Source of the DNA: Escherichia phage RB43
Reading direction: 5' to 3' (one strand)
Sequence record: NC_007023.1
DNA: 64,000 bases
A program made the position numbers and the translations under genes. Below are positions 6,423-63,070 of the stretch, in pieces; the stretch's first letter is position 1, and each line of letters opens with the position of its first letter. The notes beneath the pieces are model-generated. The model was not told the origin of the DNA. It worked only from the letters and a program-made list of their open reading frames with translations, and searched no databases.

Positions 6423-7085
6423 TTAAAAGTTAATTACACTAAGCACGTTAGCTTTCAATTCACTAAGCGTACCATTATTTAGGATGATAATATCAGTTGG
6501 TTGAGGGTTCAAACCTTTCTCAGTTGAATGGCTGTCATCCTCTCCGGTTTTCTCGTTCGATGAATACGAACTTAGGCCCCGAACTTGCTCAGGTATTTTA
6601 TATTCATGTTTTTGTCGAACATCCGTAATGATAAAGTTATCTTTATCGGAACGCAACATTTTCTTCAATACAATATCGACCCATACAATATCGTTATGAT
6701 TACACACGATATCAGTACCGAAAACCTGCATCAGTCGGCGTATTGTCCAGGGCTGTGTATTGGTTCTACAGATTTCATATACTGCTGTATCAACAGCACC
6801 AAGCCAATAGCCCCGCTTCTCTAACCGCTTAACCCCGAAGTCGAAGACTTTTAGTGCATCTTCGTTAGACATCAACAGGGGCGCTTCTCGATCGCCTGTA
6901 TAGAATGGGTTGGTTTTAGTCAGTTCACGCAAGTAACGGTTTCCCGATTCCTTCATCCCGTCCGACAGAATACTTTTGATCTCGTCAGCGAGCGCGAACG
7001 CTTCGACGTTTTGATAGTCATCTAAAACGAACTGGGTAGCGGTGTCTTTACCCGTTCGTTTTTTACCACAAATGCAATAAATCAT
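6423..7085 (-). CDS. 1: deoxynucleoside monophosphate kinase
   Basis: P-loop GKKRTGKDT; RRLMQVFGTD, ITDVRQKHE, NNGTLSEL match T4 gp1. Confidence 0.85.
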   Translation of the reverse strand: MIYCICGKKRTGKDTATQFVLDDYQNVEAFALADEIKSILSDGMKESGNRYLRELTKTNPFYTGDREAPLLMSNEDALKVFDFGVKRLEKRGYWLGAVDTAVYEICRTNTQPWTIRRLMQVFGTDIVCNHNDIVWVDIVLKKMLRSDKDNFIITDVRQKHEYKIPEQVRGLSSYSSNEKTGEDDSHSTEKGLNPQPTDIIILNNGTLSELKANVLSVINF

Positions 7086-7087
7086 TG

Positions 7088-7621
7088 TTATTTTTTCCGT
7101 GGAGTCGGCACGATTACCTTTCCGTCAATTTCAATCTCCATATATGCGAAGTTGAACATAGCCATACAGGAAACGGCTTCATCCGAATCATTAGTGTACA
7201 TAAGCTCAAGCTCTCCCAGGTTGGAGGGCCAAGCACCATAAAAGCGAAATGTCGCCACAGTTTTTGATTGCGAGTTATCCAGGATATGCAAAGCCATTGC
7301 CTGTTGTGATTCACTCCATCGAATAGATTCGAAGGTGTTAAAATCGACGGTTCCAAGCATCCATAGGTAAACACCAAGATAGGATCGCAATTCTTCATCA
7401 ACAGCAAACCGAATAGTTAACGGATCGAACTCCATTGCTGAACCAGGGATCTTACTACGGATCATTGGGTTCAAGGGTGCATCCGTAATCGGTATTTTGA
7501 TAGATGGTAGTGTAACACCCTGAACCTGTAGTTTCAACCCTTTCATGTAATCATTATCAGGAATGTCTAAAAGAAAGTTGGTTGGTGAAATTTGGTTCAG
7601 GATCATAGCAGTTGTATTCAT
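7088..7621 (-). CDS. 3: tail completion / sheath stabiliser protein gp3
   Basis: 177 aa; tube-like fold pattern paralogous to gp19; T4 synteny (1-3-2-4-53-5). Confidence 0.65.
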   Translation of the reverse strand: MNTTAMILNQISPTNFLLDIPDNDYMKGLKLQVQGVTLPSIKIPITDAPLNPMIRSKIPGSAMEFDPLTIRFAVDEELRSYLGVYLWMLGTVDFNTFESIRWSESQQAMALHILDNSQSKTVATFRFYGAWPSNLGELELMYTNDSDEAVSCMAMFNFAYMEIEIDGKVIVPTPRKK

Positions 7622-55542: not shown

Positions 55543-56973
55543 ATGCAAACTTTTAATGAACTGAATAGCATCATCACCTCAACCGATTCCTACAAAGTGT
55601 CTCACTGGATGCAGTATCCGCAAGGCACTGATGCAGCGATGTTCTATATCGAATCTCGCGGTGGTAAATTTGATGAAGTAGTAACCGCTGGCGTTAACTA
55701 CGTTGCGCGGGTTCTCGCTGAACCAATTACCATGAAGCAGGTTGAGTTAGCGCGGGTACTTTACCGTAAACACTTCGGAAAAGAGATCTTTAACTACGAA
55801 GGGTGGAAAAAGATTGCTGAACTGGGTTACACCCCTGTAATTTTCCGTGCGATCCCAGAAGGTACGGTGTTCCGGGAAAAATGCCGTGCGACTGTGTACG
55901 CCGAAAACGAATTCTCGTGGCTGGCTGGGTGGCTGGAGACAATGACGATTCGCGGTATTTGGTATCCGTCATCTGTAGCAACGCTATCGCGTGAGTGTAA
56001 AAAGGTTCTGGCACACTACCTGGATATGACTTCTGACCTTACTGGCGAAGCATATAACATCACACTGGGTACACGTCTGCATGATTTTGGGGCGCGGGGC
56101 GCGACCTCTGCTGAATCTGCTGGCATTGGTGGGCTGGCACACCTTTATAACTTCATCGGCACTGATACCGTAGAAGGGATGATTATGGCAATCAGCCTCT
56201 TTGCGGATTATCAAACACTGTTTGATGAAGTTGAAAACGTAGAAGTAGCTGGGGTTTCCATCCCTGCTCGTGAGCATTCAACTACGATTTCCTACGGTAA
56301 AGAAAACGAAGACGAAGCATATAAAAACAGCATTGAAATGTTCGGTGATGGGTTCTACGCTTGCGTATACGATTCATGGGACTACAAAGCCGCTGTTGAC
56401 CGGATCGATAGTTATAAAGAGAAAATCATTGCATCTGGCGGTGTGTTGGTAGTGCGTCCAGACTCAGGGGATATGATAGACAACATCATGTACACCTTGC
56501 GCAAACTGGGGCAAATCTTCGGATATACTGTCAACTCCAAAGGGTACAAAGTTCTTCATAACTCTGTTCGTATCATCCAGGGTGACGAGATCCACGGGCC
56601 TGAAACAATCAACCGTGTATTAAGCTGGATGGAAGCGAACAAATGGTCGAGCGAAAACATTGCGTTCGGTATGGGTGGCGGTTTGCTGCAAGAAGTTACC
56701 CGCGATACCCAGAAATATGCTGAAAAACTTTGCGCTATCCGTATCAACGGTGTGTGGAAAGGCGTTTACAAATGCCCGAAAGGTTCGGAATGGAAAAAGA
56801 GCAAGAAAGGTTTATTGATGACCATCACTAACGGGATGGAATTCAAGACAATCGATTCTCTCGAAGAATCTATTCCTGCTGGGTGGTTTGATGCGATGGT
56901 AACTTATTATGACAATGGTTATCTGAACAAAACTGACACTTTAGGGGAAATTCGTGAGCGTAGCCGGATTTAA
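55543..56973 (+). CDS. nadV: nicotinamide phosphoribosyltransferase (NAMPT)
   Basis: TDSYKVSHW, GTRLHDFGARGATS, VVRPDSGD, IQGDEI, FGMGGGLLQ are NAMPT signatures. Confidence 0.85.
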   Translation: MQTFNELNSIITSTDSYKVSHWMQYPQGTDAAMFYIESRGGKFDEVVTAGVNYVARVLAEPITMKQVELARVLYRKHFGKEIFNYEGWKKIAELGYTPVIFRAIPEGTVFREKCRATVYAENEFSWLAGWLETMTIRGIWYPSSVATLSRECKKVLAHYLDMTSDLTGEAYNITLGTRLHDFGARGATSAESAGIGGLAHLYNFIGTDTVEGMIMAISLFADYQTLFDEVENVEVAGVSIPAREHSTTISYGKENEDEAYKNSIEMFGDGFYACVYDSWDYKAAVDRIDSYKEKIIASGGVLVVRPDSGDMIDNIMYTLRKLGQIFGYTVNSKGYKVLHNSVRIIQGDEIHGPETINRVLSWMEANKWSSENIAFGMGGGLLQEVTRDTQKYAEKLCAIRINGVWKGVYKCPKGSEWKKSKKGLLMTITNGMEFKTIDSLEESIPAGWFDAMVTYYDNGYLNKTDTLGEIRERSRI

Positions 56974-57262
56974 TATCCGCGCCAACGATAACGGATCTGT
57001 AATCTTCTATAACAATCAGCCCCTTGTTGCTCGCAAGGGGCTTTTTTGTAAGTTAGTTGGGTATGGGTTCAAGTTGGAACAGGTGGATAATGCAACACTA
57101 AAAGAGATCGTGCGCATAGCCTATCTCCTGAAAGATAAGAAAGATGAACATAAGGCGGTTGCAATGCTGGAGAAATTGGGAGAAAATCATTGCTTCATCA
57201 TAAATCGTGGATACAAATACGATACAATCGCTTTATTTGAAAAAGGGCTTAGTGAACTATGA
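56954..57262 (+). CDS. hypothetical protein (102 aa)
   Basis: ORF between nadV and dam; start codon uncertain (GTG). Confidence 0.35.
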   Translation: MSVAGFNIRANDNGSVIFYNNQPLVARKGLFCKLVGYGFKLEQVDNATLKEIVRIAYLLKDKKDEHKAVAMLEKLGENHCFIINRGYKYDTIALFEKGLSEL

Positions 57263-58110
57263 ATTATTTGGGTGTGATACCTTACACGGGCAACAAACAG
57301 GATCTATTGCATAAGTTGTTTGAACTGTTTCCCGACCACCGACACTATCGTAGATTTGTCGATTGCTTCTGTGGTGGATTGAGCGTGTCGTTAAACGTTC
57401 CCAAACCAGTTCTAAGCAACGATTTCGATAAGACACTGATTGATGTATATAAGGTTCTTAAACGCGCTCCTGATCTCTCAGAGGTGCGAGAATTGATTGC
57501 TAAGAAGGGACTGAACAAAGAAAACAAAGATGCGTACCTGGCTTTTCGTGAAGAATACAACCAGCATCGCGATCCGCTGTGGCTGTACGTTCTGATCCTT
57601 CATTCATTCAGCAATGTCAACCGCACCAATGAGAAGGGAGAGTTTAACGCGCATTTTGGATACCGGACGATAAACGCATCAACGGTTAAGCGCTTTGAAC
57701 ACTTCAAGGCAAACGTAGCCGGAATTGAATTCACTTCTGGTTCTTACTCTGATATTGAAATCAGGGACACCGATTTTGTATACTGCGATCCTCCGTACCT
57801 GATTACGGATGCGGTGTATAATAAATTCTGGAATGCTGATCGCGAACGCGAGTTATACGCATTTCTTGACTCGCTTAACGAGCGGGGCATTTGGTTTGGA
57901 TTGTCCAACGTGACACACCATGCCGGAAAACAAAACGATATCCTGATTGAATGGATGAAGAAATACACCGTTCACAACCTGGATAAAAAGTATCTGTTAG
58001 GCCAGCATACAGAATCCTATGAGCAAAACAAAACTCAGGAGGTGTACGTGTGCAACTATCAGAAACGTGATGTAAATACATTCCCCTTAACACTCGATGA
58101 TTTAATGTAG
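57259..58110 (+). CDS. dam: DNA adenine methyltransferase
   Basis: Motif I DCFCGGLSV and motif IV DPPY. Confidence 0.85.
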   Translation: MNYLGVIPYTGNKQDLLHKLFELFPDHRHYRRFVDCFCGGLSVSLNVPKPVLSNDFDKTLIDVYKVLKRAPDLSEVRELIAKKGLNKENKDAYLAFREEYNQHRDPLWLYVLILHSFSNVNRTNEKGEFNAHFGYRTINASTVKRFEHFKANVAGIEFTSGSYSDIEIRDTDFVYCDPPYLITDAVYNKFWNADRERELYAFLDSLNERGIWFGLSNVTHHAGKQNDILIEWMKKYTVHNLDKKYLLGQHTESYEQNKTQEVYVCNYQKRDVNTFPLTLDDLM

Positions 58111-58116
58111 GTTAAC

Positions 58117-58389
58117 ATGTTTAAAATTTATGGTTATATTCCATCCGTTTATAATTGCGCTCCATGCCTGAACTGTAAGCGACTGCTGGACGCGAAAAAA
58201 CATGAATATGAATTCGTATCCGTTGCCGATTCCAAAGGCGAAGACGGGAAGCCGATCCTGAATGAATCGGTGATTGACGAACTCGAAGGACTGTTAGGAA
58301 CACGCCGGATGACCATGCCTCAGATTTTCCATGACGGGAAACACATTGGCGGGTTTGACCAACTTCGGGATTACGTTCGCACCCTGTGA
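58117..58389 (+). CDS. nrdC: thioredoxin/glutaredoxin
   Basis: MFKIYGY, TMPQIF, HIGGFDQLRDY match T4 NrdC. Confidence 0.8.
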   Translation: MFKIYGYIPSVYNCAPCLNCKRLLDAKKHEYEFVSVADSKGEDGKPILNESVIDELEGLLGTRRMTMPQIFHDGKHIGGFDQLRDYVRTL

Positions 58390-58408
58390 TAAATAATGAC
58401 ACCTTACT

Positions 58409-58906
58409 TTGAATGGTGTTATTATGCTGACGAAACGAATTACCAAAAAAGATTACCCCTCAATCAAGCAAGCTCTCTTTGACAAACAAGGGGGCTGCTG
58501 TGCTTTATGCAAGCGTCCTTTAGAGGGAGACATTGAAAAACATCACCTCGATCATGACCATGCTTTAGACGGCGAAAACGCCGGACGTGTGCGCGGCCTA
58601 CTGTGTAACCTATGCAACGGTACAGAAGGTATTGTAAAGCACAAATTTAACCGATCCGGTCTTGTGTCTCGTGATGTTGATTATATTGTCTGGTTGGAAA
58701 ACCTGCTTGCATATCTGAAACAAGATTATTCCGAAAACCGTATTCATGACAAATTCATACCAGATAAGGTAAAATGGTTTTCAAGACTTACCAAACCTGA
58801 TATGATTGCCGAAATGGTTTCTATGGGCTTCGAGTACGCCGAAAAAGACGAACGCAAAGCCTTAACCGCAAAATATAGAAAGCAATTAATGAAGGCAACG
58901 AAATGA
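58409..58906 (+). CDS. 49: endonuclease VII (Holliday junction resolvase)
   Basis: CALCKRPLEGDIEKHHLDHDHALDGENAGRVRGLLCNLCNGTEGIVKHKFNRSG near-identical to T4 gp49 motifs. Confidence 0.85.
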   Translation: MNGVIMLTKRITKKDYPSIKQALFDKQGGCCALCKRPLEGDIEKHHLDHDHALDGENAGRVRGLLCNLCNGTEGIVKHKFNRSGLVSRDVDYIVWLENLLAYLKQDYSENRIHDKFIPDKVKWFSRLTKPDMIAEMVSMGFEYAEKDERKALTAKYRKQLMKATK

Positions 58907-59409
58907 ATGAAAAATATACGGAACTTGATGAACTTCTCAAGTGCGTAAGTGTAGACATTTGTAGCGGTGTTGTTACGTGGACTAAGCCAACAAACCGAAA
59001 AATTTGTATAGGCCAATCTGCTGGTGTTGTTGATAAAAACGGGTATACTGTTATCGGGTTCAAAGGGAAGAAATTCTTCCGACACCACGTTATATGGTAT
59101 GCGATTCATGGTACACTACCAGAAAAACCGTATGTTATTGATCATGTTCACGGAGTTGAACGTGGCGATGGGGTTTCGAACCTACAAAAGATTACACAAC
59201 AACAAAACATCATGAAGAAAAAGGTTCAGAGAAATAATAAATCTGGACATAAAGGCGTACATTGGTGCAACACATACAACAAATGGGTTGCAAAAATAAA
59301 GTTCAATGGAAAATCAATTTATATCGGAGAGTATGACGATTTGAATGATGCTATCAACGCAAGAATTCGCAAATCTCAAGAACTCTTTGGTGAGTTTGGA
59401 GAAATATAA
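58903..59409 (+). CDS. HNH homing endonuclease with AP2-type DNA-binding domain
   Basis: HNH core IDHVHGVERGDGVSNLQKIT; AP2-like SGHKGVHWCNTYNKWVAKIKFNGKSIYIGEYDDLNDAINA; inserted between gene 49 and nrdD. Confidence 0.7.
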   Translation: MNEKYTELDELLKCVSVDICSGVVTWTKPTNRKICIGQSAGVVDKNGYTVIGFKGKKFFRHHVIWYAIHGTLPEKPYVIDHVHGVERGDGVSNLQKITQQQNIMKKKVQRNNKSGHKGVHWCNTYNKWVAKIKFNGKSIYIGEYDDLNDAINARIRKSQELFGEFGEI

Positions 59410-61532
59410 TGCTTGTAGAAAAACGCGACGGCAAAACCGTTGATTTTGATAAAGAAAAAATCCGTATTGCTGTAGAAAAAGCTGGCGGGACTATGACGGA
59501 TGCTGATGCCGCAATCATGCTGGTTCAGTACAATCAGATCCGCGATGGTAGCGCAATGAAGATCGCCCGTATCCAGGAACTCGTTGAAGAATCCCTGATG
59601 AAAACGAACCCAGCGGTCGCCCGTGCATACATCGAATATCGTCACGATCGCGATATTGCCCGTGAACAGAAAAGTAAGCTGTTCAAAGATATCTCCGGTA
59701 TGGTGAATCTGTCCAACAAAGAGATCACCAACGAGAACGCGAACAAACACGCAAGGGTATTCCCGACACAGCGCAATTTGCTGGCGGGTATTGTAGCGAA
59801 GCATTTCGCCCGTAATCATATCCTTCCGAAACATATCGTAGAAGCGCATGACTCCGGCGACATCCACTATCATGATCTGGATTACAGCCCGTTCACGCCA
59901 TACACAAACTGCTGTCTGGTGGATTTGAAAGGTATGCTGGCTAATGGCTTCAAGATGGGTAACGCAGACATCGAACCCCCGAAATCAATCGGTGTTGCGA
60001 CTGCTCTTATGGCACAGATCACCGCACAGATTGCTTCTCACCAGTACGGCGGGACAACCTTTGCAAACGTGGATAAAGTGCTGGCTCCGTATGCAGAAAT
60101 GACATATGAAAAGCATGTTAAGGATGCTAAAAAGTATAAAATTTCGTTAGATCGTACATATGCGATGGAAAAGACTGAAAAAGATGTGTTTGATGCTTTC
60201 CAATCGTATGAATACGAAGTTAACACGCTGCATACTGCCAACGGACAAACACCTTTCGTTACTATTACTTTCGGTACTGGTACGGGAATGTTTGAACGGA
60301 TGATCCAGAAAGCTATTCTGAAAAACCGTATCCGTGGCCTGGGTAAAAAAGGTATTACTCCGGTATTCCCTAAACTGGTTATGTTCATGGAAAAAGGCAT
60401 TAACCTTGATCCAGAGGATCGCAACTATGACATCAAACAACTGGCTCTGGAATGCGCTTCAAAACGTATGTACCCAGATATCATTAGTGCATATAATAAC
60501 CGTCGCATCACTGGTTCTAGCGTTCCTGTATCTCCTATGGGTTGTCGCAGTTTCCTTAGTGTGTGGCATGATGATAACGGTAATGAAGTTCTGGATGGAC
60601 GTAATAACCTGGGTGTGGTGACAATCAACCTCCCGCGTATTGCTCTTGAAGCACAATCGCAGGAAGATGAAGACGCACATGACGCATTCTGGCGTATCCT
60701 TGATGAACGTCTGGAACTGTGCTTTGAAGCCCTGATGACTCGCATCGATAGCCTACGCGGTGTTAAAGCCAGTGTAGCCCCGATCCTGTACACGGAAGGT
60801 GCATTCGGTGTTCGTCTGAATCCTGATGATGAAATCCTGGAACTGTTCAAAAATGGGCGTAGCTCTATCAGTCTGGGTTATATCGGATTGCATGAAACGC
60901 TGTTAATGTTCGGCTCCGGTCAACATCCGTTCGATCGTATTGGCTCTCAAAATGTGGGTAAACTGATTCTGGAATATCTACGCGCCGCGACCGAGGCATG
61001 GAAAAAGAAAACTGGATTTGGTTTCAGTCTGTATTCAACCCCTGCCGAATCTCTCTGCCATCGCTTCTGTAAGCTGGACTTTGAGAAGTTCGGGAGTGTG
61101 AAAGGGATCACGGATAAAGGCTGGTACACAAACAGTTTCCATCTGGACGTAGACCGCACAGTGACACCGTTCGAGAAAATCGACTATGAAGCCGATTATC
61201 ATTACATTGCATCTGCTGGTCATATCAGTTATGTCGAATTCCCTGATATGAAAAACAACCTGCAAGCCCTGGAAAAAGTCTGGGATTATGCAATGGAAAA
61301 ACTGGACTATTTCGGAACTAACCTTCCGGTCGATAAGTGCTTTGAATGTGGTGCTGATGATGAATTCACTCCTACAGAAGACGGTTTCCACTGTAAACAT
61401 TGTGGTAATCACGATCCGGCAAAAATGAGCGTTACACGCCGTACATGCGGTTATCTGGGTGCTCCTGCTGTCCGTGGTTTCAACGAAGGTAAGAACAAAG
61501 AAATGATGCACCGCACTAAGCATCAAAATTAA
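59409..61532 (+). CDS. nrdD: anaerobic ribonucleoside-triphosphate reductase
   Basis: ATP-cone N-terminus, C-terminal CxxC pairs and glycyl-radical motif RRTCGYLG; uninterrupted. Confidence 0.9.
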   Translation: MLVEKRDGKTVDFDKEKIRIAVEKAGGTMTDADAAIMLVQYNQIRDGSAMKIARIQELVEESLMKTNPAVARAYIEYRHDRDIAREQKSKLFKDISGMVNLSNKEITNENANKHARVFPTQRNLLAGIVAKHFARNHILPKHIVEAHDSGDIHYHDLDYSPFTPYTNCCLVDLKGMLANGFKMGNADIEPPKSIGVATALMAQITAQIASHQYGGTTFANVDKVLAPYAEMTYEKHVKDAKKYKISLDRTYAMEKTEKDVFDAFQSYEYEVNTLHTANGQTPFVTITFGTGTGMFERMIQKAILKNRIRGLGKKGITPVFPKLVMFMEKGINLDPEDRNYDIKQLALECASKRMYPDIISAYNNRRITGSSVPVSPMGCRSFLSVWHDDNGNEVLDGRNNLGVVTINLPRIALEAQSQEDEDAHDAFWRILDERLELCFEALMTRIDSLRGVKASVAPILYTEGAFGVRLNPDDEILELFKNGRSSISLGYIGLHETLLMFGSGQHPFDRIGSQNVGKLILEYLRAATEAWKKKTGFGFSLYSTPAESLCHRFCKLDFEKFGSVKGITDKGWYTNSFHLDVDRTVTPFEKIDYEADYHYIASAGHISYVEFPDMKNNLQALEKVWDYAMEKLDYFGTNLPVDKCFECGADDEFTPTEDGFHCKHCGNHDPAKMSVTRRTCGYLGAPAVRGFNEGKNKEMMHRTKHQN

Positions 61533-61539
61533 TCAAAAA

Positions 61540-61568
61540 GCCCCTTGCGAAAGTGAGGGGCTTTTGTT
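61540..61568 (+). terminator. rho-independent terminator
   Basis: GCCCCT...AGGGGC hairpin plus TTTTGTT after nrdD. Confidence 0.6.
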
Positions 61569-61603
61569 ATATTACACATACCGAAACGATGGAGGATGAA
61601 AAG

Positions 61604-61837
61604 ATGAAACTGACAAGAAAAATGACTGATGTTGTTGGGTGTGCATTCGCTTTGGGTTATGAAGTGAAAAATCATCCTACTCGTATTGAGATCATCAACC
61701 CTATCAAGGGTCGCGCGGGGTTGGTTCTGTGTGAAGATGGTACAGCATATCGTAATGATGTTCAGTTGGATCTGGCTATCGCTCTGCGTACCGCAAAACA
61801 AATGAAAGACGTGCTTATAGCAGGTGCTAAAAAATAA
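61604..61837 (+). CDS. hypothetical protein (about 78 aa)
   Basis: ATG 61604 with GGAGGA SD preferred over ORF-track start. Confidence 0.4.
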   Translation: MKLTRKMTDVVGCAFALGYEVKNHPTRIEIINPIKGRAGLVLCEDGTAYRNDVQLDLAIALRTAKQMKDVLIAGAKK

Positions 61838-61847
61838 GGGTTATATT

Positions 61848-62325
61848 ATGTACTGGACAAAAGACAAATTCGTGTTTCGTGATGATGAAAGTTTTGGCAC
61901 GGTATACCGAAATTTAGCTTTGCGTGGTAGTGCTTTATCACCAAATCAACTATCGTCTGTTGTAATGCCGATAAAGGTTACTCACTGTGACCGTTTTGGT
62001 GTCAATGGTCTTGTTGATTCCGCTGGCACTTCCTGGTATTCGAACTGTTCTTATCTGTTAGACAACAACGATCGTGATCTCTTCAAGAAAGCTGTCCCAG
62101 TTGTTAAGAAGTCAAGAATCTGGATGTTCAAAACTTCTGGACTGTGCGCATCTTCTGGGACGAGTTTACGTTAATGGAAAACTGGTCACAAAACAGGGTG
62201 ATCTTGAAAAATATCTTCGTAAACAACGTGAAGTTGCGTTGAAAGAAACAGAAAAAACAGTCAATCGGTTGACCAAATCGTTAGCCGAAGAAACAAAAAA
62301 TCTGAAACTGTTACGGGGTGAATGA
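61848..62325 (+). CDS. hypothetical protein; two overlapping frames joinable at A4 run 62130-62133
   Basis: Frame 1 from ATG 61848 ends 62174; frame 2 (62074-62325, coiled-coil-like) overlaps. Confidence 0.3.
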
Positions 62326-62564
62326 TGTTTCCATTAAAAGCGCGTGTTCGCAACAAAACAGGAACACAGGAATGGATGGAATGTATACGGGAAACAAAAC
62401 ATTTCTACATTTCTCAGGCAGTGGACAACAACGGAAAGAACATCCGTTATAATAAAGTTGGTGGTAAACGTGTGGGTATGGATCAATATCTCCAGGTTGG
62501 TACTGTTCGGCCTGTCAACGTTCCATTTGATTTAAGAATTCCTAACGGTAAACCTGTGATATGA
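62322..62564 (+). CDS. hypothetical protein (80 aa)
   Basis: ORF with overlapping start/stop. Confidence 0.4.
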   Translation: MMFPLKARVRNKTGTQEWMECIRETKHFYISQAVDNNGKNIRYNKVGGKRVGMDQYLQVGTVRPVNVPFDLRIPNGKPVI

Positions 62565-63070
62565 TCGGGAAAATCCTTGATATCCTGTTTCCCTCCCGTG
62601 TACGTGAGCGGGAGAAACAACAACAATTCGACGACATGTTAGAAGAAGTTATGTTCAATTCTTTTATGATGTGGAAGAAAAAACGCGAAGACGAGAAGCA
62701 CCCAAACGCACAAATGGCAAAGGGTGTTTCTAAATGCGCGGTTGGTCGTTACTGGGTTGAAAAAGATTATATTGATCTGATAGGCGCTATAGCTCCTGGG
62801 GTAACGCTGGAAGACTTTTCCCGTGCAACGGGGCGTTCGTATACTGGCTGCATCAATCGTCTGCGTATGCTGTCTATAGTGGTGCGTAGCAAGAATTACG
62901 GATATCGTGATGTTATCCGTCCGGTGATTCCGGTAAGCCGATTAAAAATTCACACGGCTAACGGAAAAAGACTTGACCTGACGGATGAAATGTGTAGAAT
63001 AGGCTATATCAGAGAGGGGAAAGTGTTAAAAGCCCCTGAATGGCTCACTAAACAATTTGAAATAAGGTAA
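62561..63070 (+). CDS. hypothetical protein (169 aa)
   Basis: ORF. Confidence 0.5.
   Translation: MIGKILDILFPSRVREREKQQQFDDMLEEVMFNSFMMWKKKREDEKHPNAQMAKGVSKCAVGRYWVEKDYIDLIGAIAPGVTLEDFSRATGRSYTGCINRLRMLSIVVRSKNYGYRDVIRPVIPVSRLKIHTANGKRLDLTDEMCRIGYIREGKVLKAPEWLTKQFEIR

What the first reader, a model, noticed from the sequence alone, without database searches (positions are those of the whole stretch)
58903..59409. HNH-AP2 homing endonuclease between endonuclease VII and nrdD
The ORF combines an HNH core with an AP2-type DNA-binding domain and sits at the nrdD locus, a known hotspot for homing endonucleases and introns in T-even phages. nrdD itself appears uninterrupted.
Basis: partly seen in the sequence, partly recalled or inferred. 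Interest (0 to 1): 0.4.

Follow-up and report, generated by a model that had tools for sequence, protein, structure and literature searches.

The report
HNH-AP2 homing endonuclease beside nrdD

Summary
The window is coliphage RB43. The ORF at 58903-59409 (+, 168 aa) is real and is a two-domain protein. The N-terminal part is an I-HmuI-like HNH ("HNN") nuclease: Pfam HNH_3 scores above its cut-off, and D80, H81, N93 and N102 are intact. The C-terminal part is an AP2 domain, confirmed by a family profile against the PDB and by a pLDDT 92 model.

The gene lies between endonuclease VII and an uninterrupted nrdD. It uses the ATG that serves nrdD in relatives lacking it, and its last codons give nrdD a new Shine-Dalgarno and start.

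About 9 of 175 related phage records carry it, always immediately 5' of nrdD, behind three different upstream genes. It is 99.8-100% identical in nucleotides where the adjacent nrdD is only 77-92% identical. RB43 is about 99% identical to the HEG-less phage GuL6, except for the gene plus about 880 bp of nrdD that match IME-CF2/Xman. That is a co-conversion tract.

It is therefore a recently mobile free-standing homing endonuclease gene. Cleavage itself is untested. HNH-AP2 endonuclease genes, three in RB43, are already in the literature.

The parts
58903..59409 (+). Free-standing HNH(HNN)-AP2 homing endonuclease gene, 168 aa plus stop.
   Evidence: ORF. Pfam HNH_3 and AP2. PHROG_99 E 3.7e-52. 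Present in about 9 of 175 related records. Only 0-1 nucleotide differences across 10 backgrounds.
58960..59220 (+). I-HmuI-like nuclease module (aa ~20-106): beta-hairpins plus the beta-beta-alpha-metal core. Pfam HNH_3 covers aa 60-102 (59080-59208). Catalytic D80-H81, N93 and N102.
   Evidence: Family profile against 1U3E, E 1.7e-7, aa 33-106. Foldseek top hit is 1U3E: 95 columns, 27% identity. H81 and N102 are invariant; D80 and N93 are kept in 72 of 73 sequences.
59242..59397 (+). AP2 DNA-binding domain (aa 114-165): three-stranded sheet plus a long helix.
   Evidence: Pfam AP2 21.2 bits, below the cut-off. Family profile against WRI1, TEM1, ERF096 and AtERF1 AP2 domains, E 4.6e-12 to 2e-3. 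Model strands 119-122, 127-134 and 137-144, helix 147-165. Rmsd 1.3 A to 7ET5 and 1GCC.
58892..58907 (+). Left junction AAGGCAACGAAATGAA. This is the former nrdD Shine-Dalgarno and ATG, now used by the endonuclease gene. The ATG (58903-58905) overlaps the endonuclease VII stop TGA (58904-58906).
   Evidence: Alignment with the empty sites of Miller and Fraggle. This is the only left-flank sequence shared by all HEG-bearing contigs, whatever gene lies upstream.
59398..59414 (+). Replacement translation start for nrdD carried by the 3' end of the element: SD GGAG (59398-59401), stop TAA (59407-59409) overlapping the nrdD ATG (59409-59411), and a new codon 2, CTT, where empty sites have AAA.
   Evidence: Sequence. 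Alignments.
59415..59431 (+). Right junction GTAGAAAAACGCGACGG (nrdD codons 3-8), identical in filled and empty sites. Together with the left junction it forms the inferred homing site.
59415..60290 (+). Co-conversion-like tract: about 880 bp of the nrdD 5' part that is IME-CF2/Xman-type within an otherwise GuL6-type RB43 backbone. The left breakpoint lies between 58829 and 59413; the right breakpoint lies between 60285 and 60298.
   Evidence: Sliding identity. Informative-site runs: 123 of 126 sites are IME-CF2-type between 59451 and 60284, and GuL6-type on both sides.
58424..58906 (+). Endonuclease VII (T4 gp49 homologue), the upstream neighbour. It is not part of the mobile element.
   Evidence: Pfam Endonuclease_7 and Endonuc-dimeris. 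PHROG_423. A 160-aa gene call in RB43 and relatives.
59409..61532 (+). nrdD, the anaerobic ribonucleotide reductase large subunit. It is uninterrupted, and is both the downstream neighbour and the presumed target gene.
   Evidence: Pfam NRDD 1-562/562, ATP-cone, Gly_radical. A terminator-like hairpin follows at 61536-61565.

Best explanation
This is a free-standing homing endonuclease gene of the HNN-type HNH + AP2 class, inserted as a promoter-less cassette exactly at the translation start of nrdD in phage RB43.

Inferred mechanism: during mixed infection, the 168-aa protein binds the intact endoVII/nrdD junction of a phage that lacks it. The inferred site is about AAGGCAAYSAAATGAAA|GTAGAAAAACGCGACGG, that is, the nrdD ribosome-binding site plus its first codons. 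Binding would use the AP2 domain and the N-terminal hairpins. The I-HmuI-like beta-beta-alpha-metal site (D80/H81/N93/N102) would then nick or cut nearby. Recombinational repair from the HEG-bearing genome copies the gene, plus a variable stretch of nrdD, into the recipient.

The insertion splits the site. It takes over nrdD's old SD and ATG, which leaves it translationally coupled to the endonuclease VII stop. It gives nrdD a new SD and ATG inside its own last codons, so nrdD stays expressed and imprecise loss of the element would damage the nrdD start.

Shown: the domain architecture, intact catalytic residues, purifying selection, exact-site presence/absence, near-identity across diverged backgrounds, and the co-converted tract in RB43.

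Inferred: the cleavage activity, the identity of the target site, and whether the enzyme nicks or makes a double-strand break.
For: Architecture:
- HNH_3 scores above Pfam's cut-off and AP2 has E 3.6e-4; PHROG_99 E 3.7e-52.
- The family profile hits I-HmuI and plant AP2 structures.
- The pLDDT 91.9 model has I-HmuI and AP2 domains as its top PDB folds.
- D80, H81, N93 and N102 are conserved.

Mobility:
- The gene is present in 9 of about 175 related phage records and absent from the rest with a clean empty site.
- The exact protein is indexed in 56 blocks of public assemblies. In all 10 places shown it lies immediately 5' of nrdD, behind three different upstream genes: endoVII, a 108-aa ORF, or a 359-aa SegE-like gene. 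Only about 16 nt on the left and 17 nt on the right are shared.
- There are 0-1 differences in 507 nt, against 77-92% identity in the adjacent nrdD.
- pN/pS is 0.14 against the one diverged copy, VQ22.
- RB43 is about 99% identical to HEG-less GuL6 except for the HEG plus 59415 to about 60290, which is 99-100% IME-CF2/Xman-type. GuL6's allele is unique in the collection, so RB43 is the recipient.

Literature:
- RB43 has three HNH-AP2 HEGs (PMC2993671 Table 5; PMC4299905; PMC1524935).
- T4 free-standing HEGs are promoter-less cassettes, often with a start overlapping the upstream stop, and they target nrd genes (PMC2988022).
Against: - No cleavage data exist for this protein. I found none for any T4-like phage HNH-AP2 enzyme in the library searched.
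- Apart from the insertion itself and nrdD codon 2, no flank polymorphism separates filled from empty sites. Self-immunity must therefore rest on the split site, or be absent, as with I-HmuI.
- The protein departs from the family consensus at three nearly invariant columns: N89D, R95Q and N105K.
- The Pfam AP2 score is below the gathering threshold.
- The gene is rare (about 5% of relatives) even though the putative site is conserved in most of them.
- The RB43 tract could in principle come from ordinary homologous recombination.
Confidence: 0.85

Rival explanations
1. The gene is a passively carried or inactivated remnant. It spread between phages only by general homologous recombination of the nrdD region, and its protein no longer cuts DNA.
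For: T4-like phages are highly recombinogenic and mosaic; other patches are visible. The protein departs from the family consensus at three near-invariant columns, N89D, R95Q and N105K. The gene is present in only about 5% of relatives.
Against: The catalytic D80/H81/N93/N102 are intact. pN/pS is 0.14. The copy is 99.8-100% identical in at least 10 backgrounds in which conversion often stops within about 20 nt of the ORF ends. That points to a process centred on the gene itself rather than to random mosaic exchange. No truncated or frameshifted copies were seen, apart from records whose assemblies are fragmented throughout (CPRSA/B).
Confidence: 0.08
2. The protein has been recruited for a phage function other than its own spread. 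It could be an AP2-type repressor or regulator acting at the nrdD start, or a nickase used in replication, recombination or packaging.
For: The AP2 domain is a sequence-specific DNA binder and sits at the nrdD translation start. T4 intron endonucleases are known to double as autorepressors (PMC2988022). The new nrdD SD lies in a hairpin, z -2.05.
Against: Most close relatives, including the 99%-identical GuL6, lack the gene altogether, so it is dispensable. It is not near the packaging genes. The population pattern is that of a selfish element.
Confidence: 0.05
3. The gene is a weapon in competition between phages. It cuts co-infecting relatives to exclude their markers, and its own spread is only a by-product.
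For: This uses the same molecular steps as homing. The HEG-bearing phages infect overlapping enterobacterial hosts: Escherichia, Citrobacter, Enterobacter and Klebsiella.
Against: These data cannot distinguish this from homing. It is a statement about selective benefit, not a different mechanism.
Confidence: 0.3

Closest known systems
I-HmuI (Bacillus phage SPO1 intron-encoded HNH endonuclease, PDB 1U3E; Pfam HNH_3)
   Same: It is the best structural and profile match for aa ~20-106. It shares the same 'HNN' catalytic arrangement (DH...N...N) and N-terminal beta-hairpins that contact DNA. By analogy, this protein may be a strand-specific nickase.
   Different: I-HmuI is intron-encoded, and its C-terminal DNA-binding part is NUMOD/helix-turn-helix. 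Here the gene is free-standing and the C-terminal module is AP2. Identity over the aligned core is only 27%.
Phage HNN/HNH-AP2 endonuclease genes (RB49, RB16, RB43, JSE, KP15; Xanthomonas phages Xp10/OP1/Xop411)
   Same: The two-domain architecture and size are the same, and all are free-standing and sporadically distributed. RB43 is listed with three such genes (PMC2993671, PMC4299905, PMC2248197). EC-W2 and EC-F2 annotate the identical gene as 'putative homing endonuclease RB16 6'.
   Different: This copy is under 50% identical to every other phage HNH-AP2 protein in the collection. It has its own site, the nrdD start. The usual 'DNR' and 'NLR' boxes read GDG and NLQ.
T4 free-standing HNH genes mobE (nrdA/nrdB) and mobC (nrdG/nrdD)
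   Same: They are promoter-less cassettes between nucleotide-metabolism genes, with a start codon overlapping the upstream stop. They target ribonucleotide reductase genes and co-convert flanking DNA (PMC2988022).
   Different: The mob proteins belong to a different HNH lineage and have no AP2 domain. Here the element replaces the target gene's own translation start.
Plant AP2/ERF DNA-binding domain (AtERF1 1GCC, TEM1 7ET5, WRI1 7WQ5)
   Same: The fold of aa 114-165 is the same (rmsd 1.3 A) and the signature is conserved: (Y/H)xGV...W.A.I...G....LG.F....AA.AY.
   Different: The plant domains are parts of transcription factors with no nuclease. The DNA sequence read by the phage domain is unknown.

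Membership tests
HNH_3 / I-HmuI-like HNH (HNN) endonucleases | Match to Pfam PF13392 at or above the gathering score. | tested here: met
   29.6 bits against a cut-off of 24.8, aa 60-102.
HNH_3 / I-HmuI-like HNH (HNN) endonucleases | Catalytic D-H general base, structural Asn and metal-binding Asn on a beta-beta-alpha fold. | tested here: met
   D80, H81, N93 and N102 are present. H81 and N102 are invariant; D80 and N93 are kept in 72 of 73 homologues. The model has strand 77-81, strand 94-98 and helix 99-105. The top PDB fold is 1U3E.
AP2 domain (PF00847) | Match to the Pfam model at the gathering score. | tested here: not met
   21.2 bits against a cut-off of 33.3, E 3.6e-4. Most homologues in the family do carry a precomputed PF00847 hit.
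AP2 domain (PF00847) | Three-stranded antiparallel sheet packed on a C-terminal helix, homologous to solved AP2/ERF domains. | tested here: met
   Family profile against WRI1 (4.6e-12), TEM1 (1.3e-7), ERF096 (1.7e-4) and AtERF1 (2e-3). Rmsd 1.3 A over 52 columns to 7ET5 and 1GCC.
Free-standing homing endonuclease gene | Sporadic presence or absence at one precise site among close relatives, with clean empty sites. | tested here: met
   9 of about 175 records carry it. The empty site in Miller, GuL6, Xman, EcRAM-01 and phi5 is GAAATGAAA|GTAGAAAAAC with no remnant.
Free-standing homing endonuclease gene | The element is much more similar between genomes than its flanks are (recent horizontal spread). 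| tested here: met
   0-1 differences in 507 nt, against 77-92% identity in the adjacent nrdD.
Free-standing homing endonuclease gene | Co-conversion of flanking markers with the element. | tested here: met
   The RB43 backbone is GuL6-type, but the HEG plus about 880 bp of nrdD are IME-CF2/Xman-type. In other backgrounds the tract is under 20 nt.
Free-standing homing endonuclease gene | Site-specific cleavage or nicking of the HEG-less allele, and super-Mendelian inheritance in crosses. | not testable with these tools
   This needs biochemistry and phage crosses.

The most novel reading that the evidence does not exclude
Because the identical gene sits behind three unrelated upstream genes, the shared flanks narrow the homing site of a phage HNH-AP2 enzyme to about 34 bp: AAGGCAAYSAAATGAAA|GTAGAAAAACGCGACGG, the nrdD ribosome-binding site plus codons 1-8. 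The AP2 domain may read the GC-rich CGCGACGG.

The element may also enforce its own retention by carrying the only SD and ATG of nrdD inside its last codons, partly closed in a hairpin, which would make nrdD translation depend on translation of the endonuclease.

If confirmed, this would be the first defined target and DNA-recognition example for the phage HNH-AP2 class from which plant AP2 factors are proposed to derive.
Probability: 0.3. Interest if true: 0.35.

Novelty: already known. Interest (0 to 1): 0.15.

Why it matters
It matters little beyond good annotation. The RB43 records in the collection label this gene 'protein of unknown function', but the literature already counts three HNH-AP2 homing endonuclease genes in RB43.

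The comparative data here add a clean natural example of intron-less homing: exact insertion point, take-over and replacement of the target gene's translation start, an ~880-bp co-conversion tract, and spread across Escherichia, Citrobacter, Enterobacter and Klebsiella phages. They also give a narrow candidate target site that would make a biochemical test of a phage AP2-domain endonuclease straightforward.

Tried and rejected
- A single-sequence phmmer search against the PDB gave only a chance lectin hit. The family profile was needed.
- NCBIfam has no model for this protein.
- The first word-indexed homologue search gave only 6 hits. Re-searching with their alignment gave more than 5000.
- No paralogue of the gene lies elsewhere in the window (tblastn). 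The other two RB43 HNH-AP2 genes lie outside it.
- Sigma-70-like promoters were not enriched in 56900-61900; terminator-like hairpins were about twice the shuffled count, but none lies within or beside the gene. No T4-type late promoter motif TATAAATA lies within 11 kb. I therefore treat the gene as a promoter-less cassette.
- I looked for fixed sequence differences between filled and empty flanks that could confer immunity. None was found apart from the insertion and nrdD codon 2.
- I considered that GuL6, rather than RB43, was the recombinant. I rejected this because the RB43 tract is 99-100% identical to another lineage, while GuL6's allele matches nothing else better than 93%.
- The Magnani et al. 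2004 paper is not held, so it is cited only through PMC1524935.
- Searches were input errors.

Full report
**Identity of the window and of the ORF.** The region 57800-60400 is 99.8% identical to two records of Pseudotevenvirus RB43. Its ATG overlaps the TGA of the upstream gene (ATGA). Its TAA overlaps the ATG of the downstream gene by one base (TAATG).
- The upstream gene is endonuclease VII, with Pfam Endonuclease_7 and the T4 endo VII dimerisation domain plus PHROG_423. Its start is probably the ATG at 58424, giving the 160 aa called in RB43 and relatives.
- The downstream gene is nrdD, 707 aa. It has a full-length match to the NRDD model (1-562 of 562), an ATP-cone and a glycyl-radical domain, so it is not interrupted.

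**Domains.** Pfam gives HNH_3 at 29.6 bits, above its cut-off of 24.8, for aa 60-102. It gives AP2 at 21.2 bits, E 3.6e-4, below its cut-off of 33.3, for aa 114-153. PHROG_99 'HNH endonuclease' matches aa 1-166 at E 3.7e-52.

Because the AP2 call was formally sub-threshold, I tested it independently.
- A profile of 73 homologues was searched against PDB sequences. It hits plant AP2/ERF domains (WRI1 4.6e-12, TEM1 1.3e-7, ERF096 1.7e-4, AtERF1 2e-3) with positions 108-161. It hits the HNH homing endonuclease I-HmuI (1U3E, 1.7e-7) with positions 33-106.
- An AlphaFold2 model built on that alignment has mean pLDDT 91.9.
- By Foldseek, the model's best PDB match is I-HmuI (95 columns, 27% identity), followed by AP2 domains of TEM1 and AtERF1 at 1.3 A rmsd over 52 columns.
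- The catalytic pattern is the 'HNN' variant. H81 and N102 are invariant, and D80 and N93 are kept in 72 of 73 homologues.
- The RB43 protein departs from the family at three nearly invariant columns (N89D, R95Q, N105K). A few other members share these departures.

**Comparison of the junction across relatives.** Of about 175 related phage records, only nine carry this gene at 95% protein identity or more: RB43 twice, IME-CF2 twice, EC-W2, EC-F2, CPRSA, CPRSB and vB_CRKPVQ_22. Every other HNH-AP2 protein in the phage collection is below 60% identical (about 49% at best).

In Miller, GuL6, Xman, EcRAM-01 and phi5 the site is cleanly empty...AAGGCAACGAAATGAAA|GTAGAAAAACGCGACGG.... There the endonuclease VII TGA overlaps the nrdD ATG. 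In RB43 that same SD and ATG now start the endonuclease gene. The element's last codons, GGA GAA ATA TAA, supply a new SD (GGAG, 59398-59401) and, through the TAATG overlap, a new ATG for nrdD. nrdD codon 2 changes from AAA to CTT. The net insertion is 506 nt.

**Evidence of recent mobility.**
- The 507-nt gene has 0 differences between RB43 and EC-W2, EC-F2 and CPRSB, 1 against IME-CF2, and 20 against VQ22. For VQ22, pN/pS is 0.14, which indicates purifying selection on the protein.
- A look-up by exact protein sequence finds it in 56 blocks of public assemblies. In all ten places shown it is immediately 5' of nrdD.
- The upstream gene differs among those places: endonuclease VII, a 108-aa ORF of unknown function, or a 359-aa SegE-type GIY-YIG gene.
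- Only about 16 nt on the left (AAGGCAAYSAAATGAA) and 17 nt on the right (GTAGAAAAACGCGACGG) are common to all.
- Across these backgrounds the gene is 99.8-100% identical, while the adjacent 887 nt of nrdD are 76.8-91.2% identical and the next 1200 nt are 86-92% identical. At that divergence, 60-115 differences would be expected in 507 nt.

**A co-conversion tract in RB43 itself.** RB43 is 97-100% identical to the HEG-less Buttiauxella phage GuL6 over most of the 7.5 kb compared, the main exception being 59409 to about 60335, where identity falls to 55-96%; a second, smaller divergent patch lies at about 62350-62750. In that interval RB43 is 99-100% identical to IME-CF2 (HEG+) and Xman (HEG-), to which it is otherwise only 81-94% identical.

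At sites where GuL6 and IME-CF2 differ, RB43 follows GuL6 up to 58703. It follows IME-CF2 at 123 of 126 sites between 59451 and 60284, and follows GuL6 again from 60299. GuL6's allele of this stretch is unique in the collection; its nearest match is 93%. RB43 is therefore the recipient.

So the RB43 lineage acquired the gene together with about 880 bp of downstream nrdD from an IME-CF2/Xman-like donor. This is the signature of homing with asymmetric co-conversion. In other backgrounds the converted flank is shorter than about 20 nt.

**Mechanism.** The most likely account is classical intron-less homing, as established for T4 seg and mob genes (PMC2988022; PMC2993671).
- The protein recognises the intact junction, or sequence just inside nrdD, in a co-infecting HEG-less genome.
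- It nicks or cuts there. Its closest structural relative, I-HmuI, is a strand-specific nickase; that statement rests on my knowledge of 1U3E and not on a test here.
- Repair then copies the gene.
- The gene appears to be a promoter-less cassette. No enriched promoter-like sites and no terminator-like site within or beside the gene were found, and there is no T4 late-promoter motif nearby. It is translationally coupled to endonuclease VII, like T4 mobE to nrdA.
- The new nrdD SD lies in a modest hairpin (59374-59402, z -2.05). Whether this couples nrdD translation to the endonuclease ORF is speculation.
- Cleavage activity, the exact target and the type of break are inferred, not shown.

**What is known, and novelty.**
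- AP2-HNH homing endonuclease genes in RB43 and RB49 were noted in 2006 (PMC1524935).
- Petrov et al. list three HNH-AP2 genes for RB43 (PMC2993671 Table 5).
- The Miller genome paper repeats this count (PMC4299905).
- The 'HNN-AP2' class is described for Xanthomonas phages, with RB43 cited (PMC2248197).
- The identical gene is annotated 'homing endonuclease' in IME-CF2, EC-W2 and EC-F2.
- The nrd genes are a documented target of phage homing endonucleases: the I-TevII intron in nrdD, mobC at nrdG/nrdD, and SegH.
- In this clade, relatives carry Seg-like GIY-YIG genes just 3' of nrdD and, in Slopekvirus-like genomes, in place of endonuclease VII.

The finding is therefore correct but already known. 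What this analysis adds is the exact insertion anatomy, the population evidence for recent spread, and a narrow candidate target site.

**Verdict.** Novelty: already known. Interest: low (0.15).

Noticed in passing
L002:2599-2925 (Klebsiella phage Fraggle_ER53); same junction as window 58907/59415: A 108-aa ORF of unknown function occupies exactly the same endoVII|nrdD junction in 73 phage records, and is at least 99% nucleotide-identical in 56 of them. It matches phrog_22516 but has no Pfam or NCBIfam hit. Its 3' end repeats the 15 nt GGCAACGAAATGAAA that precede nrdD. In some contigs (L018, L019, CPRSA/B) it lies directly upstream of the HNH-AP2 gene. It looks like a second mobile cassette with no recognisable nuclease.
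   Followed up: partly
L017:2925-4004, L018/L019:2602-3681, L003:3842-4582: Slopekvirus-like contigs carry a 359-aa SegE-type GIY-YIG gene between nrdC and nrdD, where RB43 has endonuclease VII. No Endonuclease_7 gene is called at that position in them.
   Followed up: partly
L005:9776-10627 (EC-W2); also L014, L018, L020 at 6678-7535 and Fraggle L002:5087 onward: A 283-aa Seg-like GIY-YIG homing endonuclease (I-TevI_DNA-bd, NUMOD3) lies immediately 3' of nrdD in several relatives. RB43 instead has small unannotated ORFs at window 61553-62325. nrdD is thus flanked by mobile endonuclease slots on both sides in this clade.
   Followed up: partly
L009 (GuL6), equivalent to window 59495-59582: GuL6 nrdD has an in-frame ~90-nt patch in the ATP-cone region that is only about 55% identical to every other relative examined. 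VQ22 is also unusually divergent there. The cause is unknown. One possibility is an escape allele for some endonuclease.
   Followed up: partly
window 62350-62750: This is a second patch where the otherwise ~99%-identical RB43 and GuL6 diverge (about 80-87% identity, or unalignable). It indicates another mosaic exchange downstream of nrdD.
   Followed up: no
window 59374-59402: A hairpin pairs UCUC with the new nrdD Shine-Dalgarno GGAG. The 81-nt fold has dG -18.2 kcal/mol and z -2.05. This could couple nrdD translation to the endonuclease ORF.
   Followed up: partly
L005:4624-5463 (EC-W2): EC-W2 carries an extra N4-cytosine DNA methyltransferase gene just upstream of dam. It is absent from RB43 and the other relatives examined.
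   Followed up: no
window 58409-58423: The mechanical ORF list starts endonuclease VII at a TTG (58409). Gene calls in RB43 and relatives use the ATG at 58424 (160 aa).
   Followed up: yes
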